From an uncultured Gemmatimonadales bacterium (GTDB lineage: Bacteria > Gemmatimonadota > Gemmatimonadetes > Gemmatimonadales > Gemmatimonadaceae), in assembly GCA_963793305.1 (NCBI GenBank), contig CAWBZV010000009.1, forward strand, positions 1 through 64,000: DNA of 64,000 nt, given 5' to 3'. The notes under the pieces were generated by a model. That model searched no databases. It was not told the DNA's origin and saw only the letters and a list, made by a program, of their open reading frames with translations. The stretch's first letter is position 1, and the number at the start of each line of letters is the position of its first letter. Shown here one piece after another: positions 47,593-60,400 of the stretch. The translations under genes and the position numbers were made by a program.

Positions 47593-48798
47593 ATGCGGCG
47601 ATACCCCATTCTATATCTGGTCGCGCTCGCTCTGTTAGGGGCTTGCGCGAGCGGGCACTCGGCGACCGGGCCATCGGGGACCAGCCTCACGGTCGTGAGC
47701 GGCGACAGTCAGACCGGGACATTCGGCGCGGTACTCGGCGCACCGGTCGTCGTGCACGTTGCGCCAGGGACACCCGTTACATGGCAACCATCGACCGGGT
47801 CCGGCACGATCAGCGCGCCGGCGACGAGCGACTCCAATGGGTTGGTGCACGCGTCATGGACGCTCGGGCCGGAGTTCTTCGGTCAGTCTGTGTTGGTCAC
47901 TGCCAATGGCCAGTCGCTGACCGTTTATGCATGGGGTAATGGGAGTGGAGACCTCGGCGGACGGCAGGTCTTCCCGGCGGACAACGCCTGGAACGCCGAT
48001 ATTTCAAACGCTCCGGTTGACGCCAACTCGCCGACGCTGATCGCGAGCTGCGGCGCTTCGAGCTCGCTGCATCCGGATTTCGGCACGGTCTACAACGGCG
48101 CCCCGAACGGGATTCCCTATGTCGTCGTGCACGGGAATCAACCGCTCGTCCCGGTGAGTTTTCAGTACGCGAGCGAGAGCGACCCTGGACCGTATCCGGT
48201 GCCGCCGAACGCATCAGTCGAGGGTGGCCCGAGCGGCACTGGCGACCGGCATGTGCTCGTGCTGGATGCGGACGCCTGGAAGCTGTACGAGATGTGGGAT
48301 GCCACGCCGGTGGGGAGCGGGAGCTCCTGGACCGCCGGCTCCGGCGCGATCTTCGACCTCTCGTCGGACGCGCTGCGCCCGGCCGGCTGGACATCGGCCG
48401 ATGCCGCCGGGCTCCCGATCCTGCCGGGTCTCGTCTGCTACGACGAAGTCGTCATCCACGGCGCGATCACGCACGCGCTGCGGTTCACCTGTCCAGCGAC
48501 ACGCAAAGGCTACATCGCTCCCGCGCGGCACGAAGCGTCGAGCGACACCAGCTCGGCGCTCCCGCCAATGGGTATGCGCGTGCGACTCAAGGCCATGTCG
48601 CTCGCGTCGTTTCCTCCCCATGTACAGGTGATTCTGCGGGCGCTCCAGCAGTATGGGATGTTCGTGGCTGACAACGGCTCGGCGTTCTACGTGAGTGGCG
48701 CGCCTGATCCTCGATGGAGCGACGACGAATTGCACGCGATGACAGCGCTCCACGGCAGCGACTTCGAGGTCGTGCAGATGGGGCCCGTCACACCGTAG
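47593..48798 (+). CDS. Lipoprotein with Ig-like domain and conserved unknown domain
   Basis: Lipobox LGAC; VVSGDSQTG Ig-like; FPADNAWN, GDRHVLV, WTSADAAGLPI, YGMFVADNGS. Confidence 0.8.
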   Translation: MRRYPILYLVALALLGACASGHSATGPSGTSLTVVSGDSQTGTFGAVLGAPVVVHVAPGTPVTWQPSTGSGTISAPATSDSNGLVHASWTLGPEFFGQSVLVTANGQSLTVYAWGNGSGDLGGRQVFPADNAWNADISNAPVDANSPTLIASCGASSSLHPDFGTVYNGAPNGIPYVVVHGNQPLVPVSFQYASESDPGPYPVPPNASVEGGPSGTGDRHVLVLDADAWKLYEMWDATPVGSGSSWTAGSGAIFDLSSDALRPAGWTSADAAGLPILPGLVCYDEVVIHGAITHALRFTCPATRKGYIAPARHEASSDTSSALPPMGMRVRLKAMSLASFPPHVQVILRALQQYGMFVADNGSAFYVSGAPDPRWSDDELHAMTALHGSDFEVVQMGPVTP

Positions 48799-50551: not shown

Positions 50552-51542
50552 CTAGCGTCTCATCGTGAACGGGCTATCCGCGGCCGTGGGCGCTTGGAGC
50601 TCATCGCGGAGTTGGCGGCCCGTGAAGTGGAGGAAAACGTCGTCGAGCGTGACGCTCGCGACACCGAGCGTTTGCACCGTCACGCCGTTGGCGTCTGCTG
50701 CTTCCAGTACGCCGCGCGTGGTCTCCGGGGCGTGATGGGTCGTGATGCGGAAGACGTGACCCTCGGTGACCACGTGATCCACACCCGGGATTCGGCCGAG
50801 TCGTGCTTCCCAATCGGCGGGCGCTTTGGCGAACGTCATCTCCAGTGTGTCGGCGCCAGCCACGCTTTCTTTCAGGTTGGTTGGCGTATCGAGCGCCGCG
50901 AGCTTGCCGTGATCGACAATGGCGATACGATCGCAGAGCTTGTCGGCTTCGTCCATGTAGTGTGTCGTGAGCAGAACGGTCAGGTCGCGATCGGCTTTGA
51001 TCTTGCGGAGCATCTCCCAGACTCCGGTGCGCGATACCGGGTCCAGCCCGGTCGTCGGCTCGTCGAGAAAGAAATATCTTGGGCTCATGCACGAGCCCCC
51101 GGGCAATCTCCACGCGGCGCCGCATGCCGCCTGACAGTTTCTTGACCGGTTGGTCGGCCCACTGCGTAAGCTCGACCGCCTCGAGCAGTTCGCCGATCAG
51201 ACGCTTGCGCTTCTCGCGTGCCACGCCGTACAGCTTGGCGAAGATGGTGAGATTCTCCCTCGGCGTCAGTTCCAAATCGCTGGTGAGTGCTTGTGGAATG
51301 ACGCCAATCGCGCGGCGCACATCGTCGGGAGACGTGGTGACATCCGCCCCCGCGATAATTGCCGTGCCTGATGTCGGAGGGATCAGCGTGACCATCATGC
51401 GAATCAACGTCGACTTGCCGGCGCCGTTCGGACCGAGCAGACCGAAGATCTCGCCCGGCTCGACGCTGAACGAGATGTGATCAACGGCCGTGAATGTGCC
51501 GAACGTCTTGGTGATCGCTCGAACGTCGACGGCGGCACTCAT
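50552..51542 (-). CDS. ABC transporter ATP-binding protein (DrrA-like), +1 frameshift near 51073
   Basis: [16 protein letters not shown], then [27 protein letters not shown] in the next frame. Confidence 0.92.
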
Positions 51543-52677: not shown

Positions 52678-54123
52678 ATGCGGTCACTTGTCCGTATTCA
52701 GCTACTCGCCGCGCTGGTGGGTGCAACGACCGCTCAGGCGCAGCAGTTTGCCTCCGCGGTGGGCGTTGTCGTGGACAGCGTCCACGGTGGGCCGCTCCGC
52801 GGAGCGCTCGTGGTGGTCGAGGGCACCGACGCCGAAGCAACGGTCGATGAGCACGGGCGGTTCCGCATCGATAGTATCCCCCCCGGCGCGCACCAACTCG
52901 GCGTGTTCCATCCGCTGCTGGACTCTCTCGGCGTCGCGGTAGGGACGGGCAAGCTCACGTTCGATAGTGGCTCCGCGACCTCCGTGGTGCTGGCGACGCC
53001 GTCGGTCCCCAGCATCATCGCGCTCTATTGCAGCGAGGACGAGCGCGCCCATGGCGCCGGCGCGATCATTGGGCACGTGATGATCGCGGACAGCGATGAG
53101 CCGGCGACCAATGCGACGGTTCGCTATACCTGGCGGTCGGTCATCCGCGACAAGCCGGTGCTCGAGGCGCACGTGTCTGCCGACGGCGAGTACCGCATCT
53201 GCGGCGTCCCGCTTGGGGCCCGCGGCACGCTACGGGCCGAGCAGGGCGGGCTCGTCACCGGCGACCTGCCGGCCGAGGTGGCGACGAGACCGTTGGCGTT
53301 AGTGGCGCTGCATCTTCCCCGTCCTCGCCAGGCCAACAGCCCGGGCGCGGTCGTCTCGGGTCGCGTGGTCGACGGGCACGGCATACCCGTCACCGGTGTC
53401 GACGTGATCTTCGATTCGTTGACGCGAACACTGACGACGGACAGCGGCGCGTTCACCTTGCGTGGATTGGCGTCAGGTTCACGCGCGGTGCAGTTCCGGA
53501 AGGTCGGGTTCAAGGCCATCGATGTATCCGTCGATTTGTCCATCGCGAAGCCGGCGTCGATGAGCGTGGTCCTCACTCCCGCGCCGCCAGTATTGGCTAC
53601 GGTCGACATCACGGCGACTCGTCAGAAGGCCTTGGATCGCGTCGGATTCACGGGGCGCGAACGATCAGCGGCGGGCGTGTTCCTGACGGCGCGGGATATC
53701 GACCAGCGCAGCCCGGTGACCTTTTCCGATCTGGCACGGACGGTGTCCGGGCTCAAGGTGAGCCTGCGCAATGGACAGAGCGTCGTGACCCAGCCGCTCG
53801 GCGAGTCGTACCGGGGCAATGGGTGTGTCCTCTTCGAGCTGGATGGCGCCGCGTTCAGTGACGAGCCACCGGGCACGATCGACGCGCATATCCAACCAAC
53901 GTCGATTATCGCGATGGAGGTGTATCACCCGGGCGCCGCGCCGCTCCAAATCCTACAGGATGCCACGCCCGGCGATTTCGGCATGCAGCAACCGCCCAAC
54001 AAGACGCAGCAAGCGCAAACGCGTCTGGAGACACCGGGAACGGTGGAGGGCGTGGGGAGCGCCTCGGCCACCTCGTGCACGGTGGTCGTGATCTGGACCA
54101 AGGCGACATCGGGCGGGAATTAA
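52678..54123 (+). CDS. Exported protein: carboxypeptidase-regulatory-like domains + TonB-plug-like domain, no beta-barrel
   Basis: Signal peptide; GVVVDS, GRFRIDS, GRVVD, TTDSGAF; LATVDIT, GFTGRER, IIAMEVY, CTVVVIWTK. Confidence 0.8.
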   Translation: MRSLVRIQLLAALVGATTAQAQQFASAVGVVVDSVHGGPLRGALVVVEGTDAEATVDEHGRFRIDSIPPGAHQLGVFHPLLDSLGVAVGTGKLTFDSGSATSVVLATPSVPSIIALYCSEDERAHGAGAIIGHVMIADSDEPATNATVRYTWRSVIRDKPVLEAHVSADGEYRICGVPLGARGTLRAEQGGLVTGDLPAEVATRPLALVALHLPRPRQANSPGAVVSGRVVDGHGIPVTGVDVIFDSLTRTLTTDSGAFTLRGLASGSRAVQFRKVGFKAIDVSVDLSIAKPASMSVVLTPAPPVLATVDITATRQKALDRVGFTGRERSAAGVFLTARDIDQRSPVTFSDLARTVSGLKVSLRNGQSVVTQPLGESYRGNGCVLFELDGAAFSDEPPGTIDAHIQPTSIIAMEVYHPGAAPLQILQDATPGDFGMQQPPNKTQQAQTRLETPGTVEGVGSASATSCTVVVIWTKATSGGN

Positions 54124-54252
54124 TCGGAGCTTATTAAGCGCGCGCTCATATTACAAACACGCGCACTCGATATGTCGCATTACGGCCGGTGTCTCACAAT
54201 GTGATAACAACCGGCTTGCATCGTGACCCCAACATAGCAAACATTGTGGCCC

Positions 54253-55525
54253 ATGCAGAGCCCGCCAGGTCCCATCACTCGGGGCGAACACCTCGCGTTT
54301 CTCGAGGTGCTCGGGTCCATGCGCGCGAACGACGCGCGGTGGACGCCGACGATGGCGGGCTTTGTCACCGTTCGCCTCGTCGACAAGTGGGCCGAGGCGT
54401 TGCACGGATGGCTGGCCCCGCGGCCGAGTGAAGTCGCGGCGGTGCGCGATGCGATCGACAAGGTCGCGGCCGGCCCGACGCGCAACGCGCTGACCGCGAT
54501 CGTCGATGCGATTACACAGTCCTGGGGGCGCCGACGATCCCAGGTGTCCGCGCGCGTGCTCTCGTATGCGGCCCTCCTGTCGGACGGCCGCGAGTGGGCG
54601 TTGTCGGCCGACATCTATCGGACGTTCCTCTCGCTCGCGTATCGAGACCGAGCGCGATCTCGAGTGCCACGCCTGGCATCGCATCGGCTGGTGCGAGCTG
54701 TGGCTCGGCCACTATCCCGAGGCCGAGACCGCGTTGTCATTGGCGCGCACGCAGTCCGAAGAGCTGGGTGACCGCTACGTGGAGCTCGCCGCCGAGCACG
54801 GACTGGCGCTGCTCGCGCTCCACCGCGGCAACCTTCCGGCCGCCGACGAGCGATTCGCCGCGGTGGTGACCTCGTGCGAGCAGCATCGGGCTCTGGTGCC
54901 GGCGCTGGCGGATGTGCTGGTCCTCGCGCTACACGATCAGGGCGTCGGAGCGATTTATCGTCGCGATTTCGATCGCGCGTTCGTGTTGCTGTCGCGGGCG
55001 TTGGATGAGGCGCGCACGCAGCAGCAGCGCGATCGCGTCCTGCTCGATCTGGCGTTGGGGTTCATGGAGATGGGACTGCTGGACACGGCTCGCCAGGCGT
55101 ACATGATCGTCGAGGTGACCGCGGACGATCCGACGCTGCGCTGGATCGCGTCGCTCAACTTGATGGATCTGGCGACGCGGACCGGCGCCGAGACGGTGTT
55201 CGAGCGTCACCGCCAGGCGGTGTCAAACGAACCGTTGACTCCGCGTCTCGCGGTCAACTACCACATCAATGTCGGCGAGGGGTATCGCCGGTTCGGCCGC
55301 GAACGGCAGGCGCGCCAGGCGTTCGACCGCGCCGTGGTGTTGGCGGAGCGCCACCAGTTGAACCGGGAATTACTGCAGGCCGAGGCCGCGCGAGATGCGG
55401 TTCAGCCACAGGCCACGCCGCAGAAGACGGAGCGAGCCGACGCAATCACGTTGACCGACGCCACGATCCGTGCGCAGCAGGTGATCGAGCACCTGGGCGC
55501 CGAGCTGGCCGGCGCCGGAGTGTGA
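54253..55525 (+). CDS. Tetratricopeptide-repeat protein, +1 frameshift near 54640
   Basis: ORF 54253 (HLAFLEVL, GFVTVRLVD) joins ORF ending 55525; TPR helices HRIGWC..LGHY.EA, GNLPAA, LHDQGV, LLDLAL..MEMG..DTARQAY, GEGYRRFG. Confidence 0.8.
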
Positions 55526-55552
55526 CTCCAGCGCCGCCATTGAGGGGTCGCC

Positions 55553-55726
55553 TCAGCAACCGCCGCTGGTGGCGGCCACGCCGCCGCAGGCGGGATGGAC
55601 CGCGGAAGTGGTCGTGTGGGTGGCCACGTGAGAGGCTGTGGCATCGGCTGGGGCAGTAGCTGAAGTACAGGCAGCGAGTGAAAGAGCAGCAATCGTAGCA
55701 AGCGCGAAGGAAAGACGACGGATCAT
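55553..55726 (-). CDS. Small lipoprotein/peptide precursor (57 aa) with Cys-bracketed C-terminal motif
   Basis: MIRRLSFALATIAALSLAAC-TSATAPADATASHVATHTTTSAVHPA-CGGVAATSGGC; GGAG RBS; lipobox LAAC. Confidence 0.8.
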   Translation of the reverse strand: MIRRLSFALATIAALSLAACTSATAPADATASHVATHTTTSAVHPACGGVAATSGGC

Positions 55727-55745
55727 ACAGGGCTCCAGACAATGG

Positions 55746-55798
55746 GTGAAGGATCTCAACCTTCACTGTGCGACATCGACCAGCCGAGGTCAATGTCG
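55746..55798. promoter_or_regulatory. Two adjacent inverted repeats between the peptide and AraC genes
   Basis: GTGAAGG-N7-CCTTCAC (55746-66); CGACATCGACC-N6-GGTCAATGTCG (55771-98). Confidence 0.5.
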
Positions 55799-55837
55799 TG
55801 CTGGGGCGTCGCGACCGCGTGCGCGGGCGCATTATAA

Positions 55838-56698
55838 ATGCCACATGAGACGCGTTTAAGAATCGTCTCGTTTCTGAGAGAGTTCTTATCCGCGTCGCTG
55901 CGTGTCGCGCTCGGCCCTCGACACGAGTTGCACGCCACGCACTCGGTTGACGAGCTCGACGACACGCTGCGCGTCATGGCCGCCGACATTGCGATCGTCG
56001 ACCCGGAGTTCGCGAGTCAGGCGCTCCTCGAACTGTTAGCGGTTCTCGACAAGCACGTATCAGTGCACGTCGTCAGTTACACGACGGTGTCACCGGCGGC
56101 CATGCGCGCCCAGATGCAGTTCGCGCTGCGCGGGCATCGGCACCTCGTGCTCATGGGATTCGACGACGGGCCGGCGCAGTTCCGCACCTACCTGGAAGAC
56201 CTGCGCGGCGACGCGCTCGGCGAGATTTTGTTGGCGCAGCTCCGCCCCGCGCTGGAGCGCCTGCCGACGCCAGTCTCGCGCGCGATAGAAGAGCTCTTTC
56301 GATCGCCCGCCACGGTCGAGAGCGTTCCAGCGCTCGCCCGGTTAGCCGGCGCACGCCACCGTCGACCCCTGCACGAAGCGTTGGCGCGCGCCGGCTGGCA
56401 GTCCGCCGGGACGCTCATTCGCGCCGCGCGGGTGGTGCGCGCGTACGCCTATCTCACGCAGGGCGACAACCGGGTACGCGACGTAGCCGTCAAGCTGGGT
56501 TACGCGACGTCGCGTGGGTTGGCCAACGAAGTCCGCGCCGTGTCGGGATTGCTGCCCTCGTCGCTCGGCGCCCTCACGCCGCAAGCCTTTCTCGCCCGGG
56601 TCGTCGCGGGCCTCGTGCGGCCGCCCGTCTGGGCGCCTCGGACGCCGGCCAGCAGCCTGCCCCTGGAGCGCGTGGTCCCGGAGCGGTTCGCCGACTGA
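55838..56698 (+). CDS. Receiver-like domain + AraC-type HTH regulator
   Basis: DIAIVDP, VVSYT in N-domain; VPALARLAG, RVVRAYAYL, VRDVAVKLGY in C-domain. Confidence 0.78.
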   Translation: MPHETRLRIVSFLREFLSASLRVALGPRHELHATHSVDELDDTLRVMAADIAIVDPEFASQALLELLAVLDKHVSVHVVSYTTVSPAAMRAQMQFALRGHRHLVLMGFDDGPAQFRTYLEDLRGDALGEILLAQLRPALERLPTPVSRAIEELFRSPATVESVPALARLAGARHRRPLHEALARAGWQSAGTLIRAARVVRAYAYLTQGDNRVRDVAVKLGYATSRGLANEVRAVSGLLPSSLGALTPQAFLARVVAGLVRPPVWAPRTPASSLPLERVVPERFAD

Positions 56699-59217: not shown

Positions 59218-59237
<20 letters not shown>

Positions 59238-60400
59238 ACAGCACGGCGAACACGACGAGGATCACCGCCGCGAAGCCGGCGGGAATAAGCCAAATGGTGT
59301 GCCAGTCGTGACCCGTGGGTGTCGTGAACGCCTGCACAATGTTTCCCGATAGCCACCCGCCGATAAACAGCCCGGCGCCTTGGGTGATCAAGGCCAGAAA
59401 CCCCTGCGCCGCTGCCCGTATCTGAATATCGGCTCGCTGGTCGACATAGATCTGCCCGGTCACGAAAAAGAAGTCATAGCAGACGCCGTGCAGCAGGATG
59501 CCGGCGTACAACATCCACACGAGCGGCCCGGTGTTGCCGTATGCGAAGAACGCATATCGCAGCGCCCAGGCGGCCATGCCGATCAAGAGGATGCGCTTGA
59601 CGCCGAGCCGGACGAGGAGCACCGGCAGGAGCAGCATGAAGCCGAGCTCGGACATCTGCCCGAAGCTCATTTTGCTCGCGGGTTCGCTGAGGCCGATCTC
59701 GTTCAGATAGAGGTTCGTGAACGCGTAATAGAACTGCAGCGGGATGCAGAGCAGAAACGACCCGACGATGAACGTGGCGAACGACCGATCGCCCAGCAGC
59801 TTGAGCGCATCGACCCCGAGGAACATCCCGGATGCGAAGCGCCTTGCCGGCCGCGTGCGGCGGCGTGTGCGGCAACAGGAACGAGTAGAGTCCGAGGACG
59901 ATCGATGCGCCCGCCGCGATCTCGAGCGGCACAACGGTGGGCTCCACGTGCAGCCGGCCCACGAGAAGCCCGGCGACGATCCAGCCGATCGTGCCCAGTG
60001 CGCGGACCGCGGGGAACTCTCGCGCCGGCTCTTGCATGTGGTCGAATGACAGGGAGTTGGTGAGCGCCAGCGTCGGCATGTAGCAGAGCGCGTAGGCGAC
60101 GAGCAGCGGGTAGAACGCGCCGAACGTGACGGCGCGCGACGCGGCGTACATCAAGAGCCCGCCGGCAAGATGGAGCACGGCCAGCGCCCGCTCCGTCGCC
60201 AGGAAGCGGTCGGCGATCATCCCGACGAAGAACGGCGAGATCATCGCGGCGAGCGCCGTCGCGCCGTACGCGAGACCGATCTGGGTGCCCGAGAACTTGA
60301 GGGTCTGGCCCAGATACGTGCCCATGGTCACGAACCAGGCGCCCCAGACGAAGTACTGCAAGAACATCATGGCCGAGAGCTTCACGCGGACGTTGCTCAT
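59218..60400 (-). CDS. Nucleoside:H+ symporter (NupG/XapB-like MFS), +1 frameshift near 59821
   Basis: [31 protein letters not shown]; then [23 protein letters not shown]. Confidence 0.92.

What the first reader, a model, noticed from the sequence alone, without database searches (positions are those of the whole stretch)
54253..56698. Candidate undescribed peptide-signalling module: TPR protein + small lipopeptide precursor + receiver/AraC regulator
Seen: a ~420-aa cytoplasmic all-TPR protein with no evident HTH ends 27 bp from the stop of a convergent 57-aa gene. That gene has an RBS, a lipobox signal, a low-complexity T/A/H spacer and a distinct C-terminal motif, and is divergent from a receiver-like AraC regulator. 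Known: Firmicute RRNPP systems (Rap-Phr, NprR-NprX, PlcR-PapR) pair a TPR receptor with a short exported pre-peptide whose C-terminal part is the signal, and Rap proteins act on response regulators. Inference: this is an analogous quorum-sensing-like circuit in a diderm lineage, with a lipoprotein precursor and the AraC protein as output.
Basis: partly seen in the sequence, partly recalled or inferred. Interest (0 to 1): 0.88.

Follow-up and report, generated by a model that had tools for sequence, protein, structure and literature searches.

The report
Swappable peptide-signal cassette in Gemmatimonadota
A double-membrane soil bacterium and its relatives carry a three-gene unit (a tiny exported lipopeptide with a variable tip, a repeat protein that changes together with that tip, and a gene regulator with a matching DNA site) that looks like a peptide messaging system of a kind described in Gram-positive bacteria.

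Summary
The TPR frameshift is one extra base (54643) that near-identical strains lack. The layout TPR→ ←lipopeptide, REC-AraC→ recurs in 87 of 100 Gemmatimonadota loci examined (peptide in 92; control 9 of 800).

New here:
(1) The peptide's C-terminal tip and the TPR's distal two thirds form one swap block. Against a close relative the flanks are 95-96% identical and the block 67-70%, with dS up 5-10-fold. Each TPR allele has its own tip.
(2) Tip similarity tracks TPR residues ~150-270; receiver-domain similarity tracks the TPR N-terminus (a weaker signal).
(3) Tail cysteines come in pairs or not at all (67/0/34), and four peptides repeat the tip in tandem.
(4) A 21-bp-period direct repeat abuts the peptide promoter in 66 of 89 loci. 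It varies with the AraC recognition helices and also precedes some TPR genes, which suggests a feedback loop.

The receiver lacks the acidic pair and the lysine, so it is probably not phosphorylated. Best reading: a Rap-Phr-like peptide circuit in a diderm phylum, with ancestry from Rap unproven. Release, re-import and action between cells are inferred, not shown. Eight paper searches found no description.

The parts
54253..55525 (+). Cytoplasmic all-helical TPR protein (~423 aa), candidate peptide receptor; one extra base at 54643 breaks the frame in this assembly
54253..54703 (+). Conserved N-terminal part of the TPR gene (codons 1-150); its similarity tracks the receiver domain of the AraC partner (inferred output face)
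54704..55585 (.). Swap block: distal TPR repeats, the 27-bp gap and the last ~10 codons of the peptide, ~70% identical between otherwise 95-96% identical loci
55553..55726 (-). 57-aa lipoprotein propeptide: signal peptide (55670-55726), lipobox Cys20, post-Cys T-A-P motif, spacer, tip
55556..55588 (-). Variable tip, Cys47 to Cys57 (predicted disulfide loop of 9 residues); candidate mature signal
55733..55736 (-). Ribosome binding site GGAG of the peptide gene
   Evidence: such a site in 80 of 89 loci
55765..55793 (-). Predicted promoter of the peptide gene (-35 TTGACC 55793-55788, 17-bp spacer, -10 CACAGT 55770-55765), placed by its geometry in related loci; the consensus scan did not list it
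   Evidence: negative
55797..55829 (-). Direct repeat with 21-bp period (10 of 12 match) next to the -35 and 9 bp before the AraC start; predicted binding site of the AraC protein; a clade-specific variant of the family site
55838..56698 (+). Atypical receiver domain + AraC HTH regulator (286 aa); predicted output and autoregulator
54139..54168 (+). Weak 21-bp-period repeat upstream of the TPR gene (8 of 9 match, read by eye); possible second AraC site
   Evidence: family-level support
54194..54204 (.). Palindrome TCACA-N-TGTGA upstream of the TPR gene, kept in all 14 aligned clade loci; role unexplained

Best explanation
A Rap-Phr-like peptide signalling circuit adapted to a two-membrane envelope. 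Steps: (1) The small gene makes a prolipoprotein that is exported, lipidated at Cys20 and, in two thirds of cases, closed into a disulfide loop at the tip (anatomy shown; processing inferred). (2) A protease frees the C-terminal tip, which spreads and is taken up again, probably by the Opp transporter present in the genome (inferred). (3) In the cytoplasm the tip binds the middle repeats (about residues 150-270) of its own TPR allele (inferred from co-variation and joint swapping). (4) The TPR N-terminal helices contact the atypical receiver domain of the AraC protein and set its activity without phosphorylation (inferred; the weakest link). (5) AraC binds the 21-bp-period repeat and activates the peptide gene, and in many loci the TPR gene and a few secreted or surface proteins, while covering its own start: an autoinduction loop (site shown; binding inferred). 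I favour TPR as inhibitor relieved by the peptide (about 60:40 over co-activator), by analogy with Rap. The tail-to-tail layout lets one recombination event replace receptor pocket and signal together, giving strain-specific dialects.
For: Module conserved in 87 of 100 loci (control). Swap block: window vs L059 nucleotide identity 95% (TPR codons 1-150), 70% (TPR 151-end), 67% (last 9 peptide codons plus stop), 96% (rest of peptide). dS is 0.15 outside and 0.75-1.45 inside the block. The same pattern is seen in L282 vs L283 and L279 vs L059, and in a laid contig whose middle 644 bases are replaced. L058, L059 and L277 share the block (97-100%) and the tip. Partial Mantel over 83 loci: tip vs TPR 151-260 r=0.218 (p=0.001), tip vs TPR 1-150 r=0.006; the peak is at 181-240. 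In 33 disjoint pairs: tip vs TPR 151-385 rho 0.52 (p=0.002), vs N-part rho 0.02. REC vs TPR 1-150 r=0.251, vs 261-385 r=-0.175. Tail Cys two/one/none = 67/0/34; tandem tip repeats in 4 of 101, like duplicated Phr pheromones (PMC11343458, PMC5199041). Period-21 repeat in 66 of 89 promoters (other periods 14 or fewer; shuffled 2.25); half-site varies with the AraC recognition helices; own site also before own TPR gene in 8 of 69 (shuffled 0). A motif-only search hit a site directly before a TPR-family gene. Complete oppABCDF. Rap and NprR align over most of the model (Z 19.6-21.5). A natural ECF-sigma-TPR fusion exists.
Against: All support is comparative; kin are not independent and the loci were the best-scoring hits. 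The signal-peptide region also tracks TPR 151-385 in the 33 pairs (rho 0.44), so physical linkage explains part of the co-variation. HTH vs TPR 261-385 also gives r=0.252 with no physical reason, so the REC vs N-terminus signal could be a rate artefact. Disulfide loops form outside the cytoplasm while the TPR is cytoplasmic, and looped peptides of 8-13 residues may be poor Opp substrates (recalled). No protease or outer-membrane route was identified; the test of the post-Cys motif as a surface signal was inconclusive. 13 of 22 paralogs in this genome have no convergent peptide. No AraC-TPR fusion was found (weak search). The window's clade lacks the family consensus site and no regulon was found for its variant.
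Confidence: 0.66

Rival explanations
1. Same three parts and same receptor-tip pairing, but cell-autonomous: the lipopeptide stays in the periplasm and its clipped tip reports envelope state (protease activity, redox, leakiness or Opp load) back to the cell that made it.
For: A lipid anchor tethers the precursor; the disulfide loop fits the periplasm; Opp collects from the periplasm; no outer-membrane route was found (inconclusive).
Against: Strain-specific alleles with old, jointly swapped receptor-tip blocks are expected under social diversifying selection, not for a private sensor. Extra predicted target genes are mostly secreted or surface proteins: SH3 proteins in two families, a type IV pilin, an operon with peptidoglycan-binding and amidase genes.
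Confidence: 0.16
2. The lipopeptide is a surface kin tag or contact-dependent effector delivered between touching cells, and the TPR is its cognate recogniser or immunity-like partner that reports to AraC.
For: Variable C-terminus swapped together with a cognate partner is also the pattern of polymorphic toxin-immunity pairs (recalled). The post-Cys T/S-x-P motif is shared with 43 of 221 larger lipoproteins (null 1.9%), some with Ig-like or SusD-like domains. One partner type is fused to a cupredoxin domain.
Against: Tips are 8-13 residues, Gly/Ser/Asn-rich and mostly uncharged, with no toxin-like size or domain. Tandem tip repeats and an autoregulatory site fit a pheromone better.
Confidence: 0.08
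3. The signal is cut from the lipoprotein signal peptide, as for enterococcal sex pheromones (recalled), and the tail is a by-product.
For: The precursor is a lipoprotein; signal-region similarity also correlates with the TPR.
Against: Signal peptides are identical or nearly so among alleles whose TPR blocks differ by 30%; the tail, not the leader, is duplicated and carries paired Cys; the swap boundary falls inside the tail.
Confidence: 0.03
4. The peptide gene is only an AraC target that hitch-hikes next to the TPR gene; TPR and AraC form a two-protein switch sensing something else.
For: TPR-AraC pairs without a peptide exist (L005, L021, L109, L110); linkage alone yields some co-variation.
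Against: The tip tracks TPR 151-270, 500-900 bp away, more than the nearer C-terminal part. Peptides stay with TPR paralogs that have no AraC neighbour. All 9 small motif-bearing lipobox ORFs in this genome lie beside a TPR paralog.
Confidence: 0.07

Closest known systems
Rap-Phr (RRNPPA family) of Bacillus, its phages and plasmids, e.g. RapC/RapF-ComA, Rap105, RappLS20
   Same: HTH-less TPR protein of ~400 aa, adjacent short exported propeptide with C-terminal candidate signal, tandem signal duplications, many paralogs per genome, a response-regulator-type or XRE-type partner, Opp in the genome; Rap chains align over most of the model (PMC11343458, PMC5199041, PMC10075063 passages).
   Different: Diderm host; lipoprotein (SPase II) precursor; disulfide-looped tip in two thirds; tail-to-tail genes forming a swap block; dedicated atypical REC-AraC partner with its own site in the peptide promoter; no sequence similarity to Rap105 detected; LGN/Pins rank above Rap by fold.
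NprR-NprX, PlcR-PapR, Rgg-SHP, AimR-AimP
   Same: Cytoplasmic TPR receptor plus small peptide gene, autoinduction, allelic pherotypes (the last two recalled).
   Different: These carry their own HTH; here DNA binding is on a separate AraC protein (one ECF-sigma-TPR fusion found). No such family model was hit in NCBIfam or Pfam.
Enterococcal sex pheromones (cCF10/PrgX, cAD1/TraA; recalled)
   Same: Peptide signal derived from a lipoprotein precursor and read by a TPR-type receptor.
   Different: There the signal comes from the signal peptide of a large unlinked lipoprotein; here variation, duplication and swapping all point to the C-terminal tail of a tiny linked one.
agrBDC and comQXP hypervariable cassettes (recalled)
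   Same: Signal gene and receptor specificity region lie side by side in one divergent block with conserved flanks.
   Different: Those use membrane histidine kinases and modifying enzymes; none is encoded here.

Membership tests
RRNPP/RRNPPA (criteria of PMC10075063 section 15) | TPR receptor of 250-500 aa | tested here: met
   418-424 aa in 11 complete close relatives; TPR Pfam hits; helical repeat model
RRNPP/RRNPPA | Receptor is cytoplasmic | tested here: met
   No signal or transmembrane segment by hydropathy; no SignalP run was available
RRNPP/RRNPPA | Adjacent propeptide of 10-100 aa within -60 to 400 bp | tested here: met
   Median 44 aa (38-88), median stop-to-stop distance 25.5 bp, 92 of 100 loci; orientation is convergent
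RRNPP/RRNPPA | Propeptide carries a Sec export signal | tested here: met
   Basic N-region, hydrophobic core and lipobox by my own pattern rule; lipoprotein type, which the paper's text does not mention (0 occurrences of 'lipoprotein')
RRNPP/RRNPPA | Mature signal is a C-terminal stretch, processed outside and re-imported by Opp | not testable with these tools
   Indirect only: tip variability and tandem repeats; oppABCDF present
RRNPP/RRNPPA | Peptide binds the concave TPR face | not testable with these tools
   Needs a binding assay; co-variation maps to residues ~150-270
RRNPP/RRNPPA | Gram-positive (Bacillota) host | tested here: not met
   Named homologs are Gemmatimonadaceae/Gemmatimonadales; genome has TonB receptors, a Pal/OmpA-type lipoprotein and YfiO-type lipoprotein
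Rap subfamily | Homology to Rap (N-terminal three-helix bundle + 7 TPRs) | tested here: inconclusive
   Fold match Z 20.4-21.5 to four Rap chains but below LGN/Pins; RapJ E=5e-4 below LGN; profile vs Rap105 probability 1.2%
Rap subfamily | Conserved Asn anchoring the peptide backbone (Asn220 in Rap105, PMC11343458) | tested here: inconclusive
   Conserved Asn at 193 (128 of 148), 302 (96), 370 (84) and Asp at 265 (137); no residue-level superposition was available
Canonical response regulator | Acidic pair after beta1, Asp at beta3, Thr/Ser at beta4, Lys after beta5 | tested here: not met
   Asp55 in 83 of 85 and Thr/Ser82 in 70 of 85, but no acidic pair and Asp-Asp in place of Lys; atypical receiver
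AraC/XylS family | C-terminal double HTH; direct-repeat site next to -35 | tested here: met
   HTH_18 in 85 of 85; AdpA best solved relative; period-21 repeat; that AraC sites are such repeats is recalled
Enterococcal lipoprotein-signal pheromones | Signal lies in the signal peptide | tested here: not met
   Leader near-constant across divergent receptor alleles, tail variable and duplicated

The most novel reading that the evidence does not exclude
Gemmatimonadota evolved, independently of Firmicutes, a true cell-to-cell peptide quorum-sensing language: disulfide-looped pheromones cut from tiny surface lipoproteins, crossing both membranes to a cytoplasmic TPR switch that controls a phosphorylation-independent receiver-AraC regulator, with new dialects made by single recombination events that swap receptor pocket and signal together; AraC-less paralogs reuse the switch on XRE or ECF regulators and mobile elements.
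Probability: 0.42. Interest if true: 0.93.

Novelty: new variant of a known kind. Interest (0 to 1): 0.83.

Why it matters
Intracellular peptide-receptor signalling is described as a Gram-positive trait (PMC10075063, introduction passage). A version spread over two large families of a common, mostly uncultured diderm soil phylum would extend it across the envelope divide. It raises a testable question: how does a peptide leave and re-enter a two-membrane cell? The cassette gives a natural library of matched receptor-tip alleles and a predicted promoter and operator, so the circuit can be rebuilt in a laboratory strain and could supply orthogonal peptide-responsive switches. The operator also gives a first handle on what these bacteria do as a group.

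Tried and rejected
Complex prediction of intact TPR (alignment A3) with its 38-aa mature peptide gave no answer (score 0.02); it is not used either way. No relatives in viral contigs, phage records or plasmid records. No longer, fused AraC forms (weak search). Profile comparison with Rap105 found nothing. NCBIfam named no family above its cut-off for any part. ESM Atlas gave Gemmatimonadota TPR clusters for the receptor, plus one unnamed Bacteroidota group at 0.95 that I did not follow, and nothing at 0.9 or above for the peptide. The post-Cys T/S-x-P motif as a surface-export signal: 40 motif and 40 non-motif lipoproteins scanned; Ig-like, carboxypeptidase-regulatory or SusD-like domains in 6 vs 4, classic periplasmic types mostly in the non-motif set, 24 of 40 motif proteins without a family: inconclusive. 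The sigma-70 scan did not list the promoter I propose. A matrix for the window clade's site found only the site itself as a credible hit (one of four training rows was one base out of register). A TGTCAGAA-type pattern was found in only 4 of 61 family genomes. An apparent lipobox ORF upstream of the TPR (53925-54080) is antisense to the upstream gene and was rejected. Earlier scan notes by sequence and by place: none.
Full report
1. Observation. The window is contig C9:1-64000 of a 5.72-Mb genome (92% complete). Named homologs place it in Gemmatimonadaceae. The three genes are as described: TPR 54253-55525 (+), a 57-aa lipobox gene 55553-55726 (-) ending 27 bp from the TPR stop, and a 286-aa regulator 55838-56698 (+). 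The TPR frame breaks at one extra base, 54643. Contigs of runs X1 (2981 letters, 19 differences), X2 (1095 letters, 4 differences) and X16 lack that base. X1 and X2 are one study and may include the source sample. The 11 complete close relatives have open frames (L280 and L281 are cut by contig ends). So the break is an assembly error or a private mutation, and the gene is intact in the population.

2. A gene family, not a one-off. This genome has 22 TPR paralog loci. Eleven have a small lipobox ORF within 800 bp, against 3.8% of 5000 random places, and all 9 small lipobox ORFs with a post-Cys [PA]-T-[AS]-P type motif lie beside a paralog. Nine of 22 have it in the convergent position. Five of the six strong REC-AraC paralogs adjoin a TPR paralog. 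In the phylum 143 of 301 genomes had a TPR match at E<=0.001 (45 of 69 in the own family, 73 of 125 in the second family; only five candidates were scored per genome, and many matches outside these families are weak). I fetched 103 loci from other genomes, chosen as the best-scoring matches; 3 were dropped because the contig ends within 400 bp of the TPR stop. Of 100, 92 have a convergent lipopeptide, 89 a downstream AraC gene and 87 both. By group the peptide counts are 43 of 47, 10 of 13, 36 of 36 and 3 of 4. With a profile, 94 of 100 have an AraC-family gene nearby. The same peptide caller fired at 9 of 800 ordinary long ORFs, 3 of them TPR paralogs. These tallies include one locus (L032) from unpublished genome G157; it was left out of the alignments, co-variation and motif counts. 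G057 and G182 enter only the phylum and class tallies. A profile search found 463 clusters at E<=1e-30. None was found on viral contigs, phages or plasmids.

3. The peptide. Across 101 peptides the median length is 44 aa (the counts below leave out L032). A post-Cys T/S-x-P type motif is present in 95. Extra cysteines in the tail number two in 67, one in none and zero in 34, with 6-11 residues between them in 65 of 67, which points to a disulfide loop (inference). Four peptides repeat the tip in tandem, up to six times. Window vs L059 shows 7 synonymous and 4 non-synonymous codon changes, 3 of the 4 in the tip. Tandem pheromone duplication is a known trait of Phr propeptides (PMC11343458, abstract and passages; PMC5199041, passages).

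4. Receptor pocket and tip move together. Against L059, nucleotide identity is 95% over TPR codons 1-150, 70% over the rest of the TPR, 52% in the gap, 67% over the last nine peptide codons plus stop, then 96% for the rest of the peptide and 89% for AraC. dS rises from 0.15 to 0.75 and 1.45 while dN stays below dS, so this is an old divergent block exchanged or kept by balancing selection, not a burst of point changes. L282 vs L283 and L279 vs L059 show the same. A contig in run X16 matches both flanks with 647 other letters between. L058, L059 and L277 share both block and tip. The other complete clade loci each carry a different tip. The tail-to-tail layout is what makes a single swap possible (inference).

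5. Co-variation. Over 83 loci, partial Mantel correlation of tip similarity was 0.218 with TPR 151-260 (p=0.001), 0.089 with 261-385 and 0.006 with 1-150; the signal region went most with 1-150 (0.223). A sliding window peaks at 181-240. In 33 disjoint pairs the tip followed TPR 151-385 (rho 0.52, p=0.002) and not the N-part (0.02). The signal region also followed 151-385 (0.44), so linkage contributes. The receiver domain followed TPR 1-150 (0.251) and not 261-385 (-0.175). The HTH followed 261-385 (0.252) for no evident reason, so rate effects can make such signals. Permutation p-values overstate because kin are not independent.

6. Structures. The intact TPR (L059) folds with pLDDT 95 into 20 helices. 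Best fold matches are LGN/Pins (Z 24.9, 24.1), then among others RappLS20 (Z 21.5, 320 aligned, rmsd 7.1, model 31-371), Rap105, RapH, RapI (20.4-20.6) and NprR (19.6) (one search agrees). This is a generic TPR superhelix of Rap-like size. A profile comparison with Rap105 found nothing, and profile searches of solved structures rank LGN first among natural proteins. The regulator has a receiver fold and an AraC HTH. It keeps Asp55 (83 of 85) and Thr/Ser82 (70 of 85) but lacks the acidic pair and the lysine, so allosteric control by a protein partner is more likely than phosphorylation (inference; the canonical residue set is recalled).

7. A predicted feedback loop. Upstream of the peptide start, 66 of 89 loci have a direct repeat of period 21 (at least 9 of 12 matches); other periods gave 14 or fewer and shuffles 2.25. 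A matrix found the site in 70 of 89, median position -113, directly before a -35/-10-like pair. Half-site sequence changes in step with the AraC recognition helices (by inspection, confounded by kinship). The locus's own site also stands before its own TPR gene in 8 of 69 cases (shuffles 0), and a motif-only search landed before a TPR-family gene. In ten genomes the pattern occurred 1-5 times, reversed controls 0-1. Extra sites precede SH3-domain secreted proteins in two families, a type IV pilin, an operon with peptidoglycan-binding and amidase genes, a lipoprotein and a dipeptidase; several other sites had no clear target. The window's clade does not match the family matrix (19 of 89 loci do not). 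It has its own period-21 repeat (10 of 12) at 55829-55797, kept in the clade while the promoter spacer varies, and its recognition helices differ too.

8. Import and export. The genome has a complete oppABCDF operon with a POT transporter and a second SBP_bac_5 locus. No processing protease or outer-membrane route was identified. The post-Cys motif also occurs in 43 of 221 larger lipoproteins (null 1.9%), but its link to surface exposure was inconclusive.

9. Modularity. Four AraC-less paralog loci have an XRE/Cro HTH gene nearby, one of them near a D5-type primase. One peptide-less TPR-AraC pair sits before lasso-peptide-type genes. One protein cluster fuses an ECF sigma factor to the TPR (3 of 5 members 644-656 aa). 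This resembles Rap proteins changing targets (PMC5199041, abstract).

10. Mechanism and rivals. Most likely (0.66) the tip is released, re-imported and bound by its cognate TPR, which controls the REC-AraC protein through its N-terminal helices; AraC activates the peptide gene and a small regulon. Shown: anatomy, conservation, joint swapping, paired cysteines, the repeat. Inferred: processing, transport, both protein contacts, DNA binding, sign of regulation, action between cells. Rivals: private envelope sensing (0.16), contact tag or effector (0.08), hitch-hiking peptide (0.07), signal-peptide-derived pheromone (0.03).

11. Literature and earlier notes. Eight full-text searches (listings and abstract starts only) returned Gram-positive RRNPP work and nothing on this module; 'Gemmatimonad' with 'RRNPP' gave 0 papers. 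The library lacks most subscription papers, and I read no supplements; the RRNPP_detector tables could list non-Firmicute candidates. I read passages and section 15 of PMC10075063, the abstract and passages of PMC11343458 and passages of PMC5199041. Two earlier AI notes of this scan on other genomes reach the same reading; they are repeats, not support. What I recall without a call: enterococcal pheromone origin, agr and com cassettes, AraC site geometry, receiver residues, Opp size limits.

12. Verdict. A real, widespread and apparently undescribed module. It works like Rap-Phr by several independent sequence signatures, but membership of RRNPP is not met on host and is unproven on ancestry. 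New variant of a known kind; interest 0.83.

Noticed in passing
L143:5842-6273 (G000 C3:1332841-1333272), also L065, L066: The convergent partner of one TPR paralog is a 144-aa lipoprotein with the same leader and a Cys-Gly-rich-Cys segment followed by a cupredoxin-like domain.
   Followed up: partly
G000 C10:148-149k, C11:134k, C12:38k, C3:1532k, C5:1500k; P0050, P0066, P0089, P0160: A subset of TPR paralogs has an N-terminal extension with a C-x-G-P-x-x-H-x-W...D-A-A-x-C-C-N motif, possibly metal-binding; no Pfam match.
   Followed up: partly
L145:5137-8605 (G000 C5:653-657k): A peptide-less TPR-AraC pair lies directly before PqqD, transglutaminase-like and asparagine-synthase genes (lasso-peptide type cluster).
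   Followed up: no
G000 C5:675121, C5:1615850, C2:12530, C1:17726, C2:865358, C5:1270700, C2:797613, C3:931655 and others: About a dozen period-21 TGTCAGAA-type sites genome-wide, perhaps the regulon of the stand-alone REC-AraC paralog at C4:145103; one precedes a peptide-TPR pair in tandem orientation.
   Followed up: partly
L132, L133, L136, L139: AraC-less TPR paralogs have small XRE/Cro HTH genes nearby; L133 also lies near a D5-type primase, suggesting an integrated element. L137 lies near a VirD4-type gene.
   Followed up: no
genome-wide, e.g. window 47593-48795: 43 of 221 larger lipoproteins carry a T/S-x-P motif just after the lipobox Cys (null 1.9%); possibly a phylum-specific lipoprotein sorting signal.
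   Followed up: partly
window 54194-54204: Palindrome TCACA-N-TGTGA before the TPR gene, kept in all 14 aligned clade loci; possibly a site for another regulator.
   Followed up: no
window 50552-51542 and 59218-60400: An ABC ATPase gene and a nucleoside MFS gene also appear split over two frames; several TPR paralogs are split too, so the assembly may hold indel errors.
   Followed up: no
P0059 (cluster with P0170, P0172): ECF sigma factor fused to the N-terminus of a TPR family member (644-656 aa in 3 of 5 cluster members).
   Followed up: partly
L150:9066-9914 (G000 C2:175k): A more distant stand-alone REC-AraC homolog lies upstream of the opp operon; similar distant homologs occur in most genomes of the order.
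   Followed up: no
ESM Atlas, rank 18: A group of unnamed ~350-aa clusters, commonest Bacteroidota, scores 0.95 by features against the TPR; might be a sister system.
   Followed up: no
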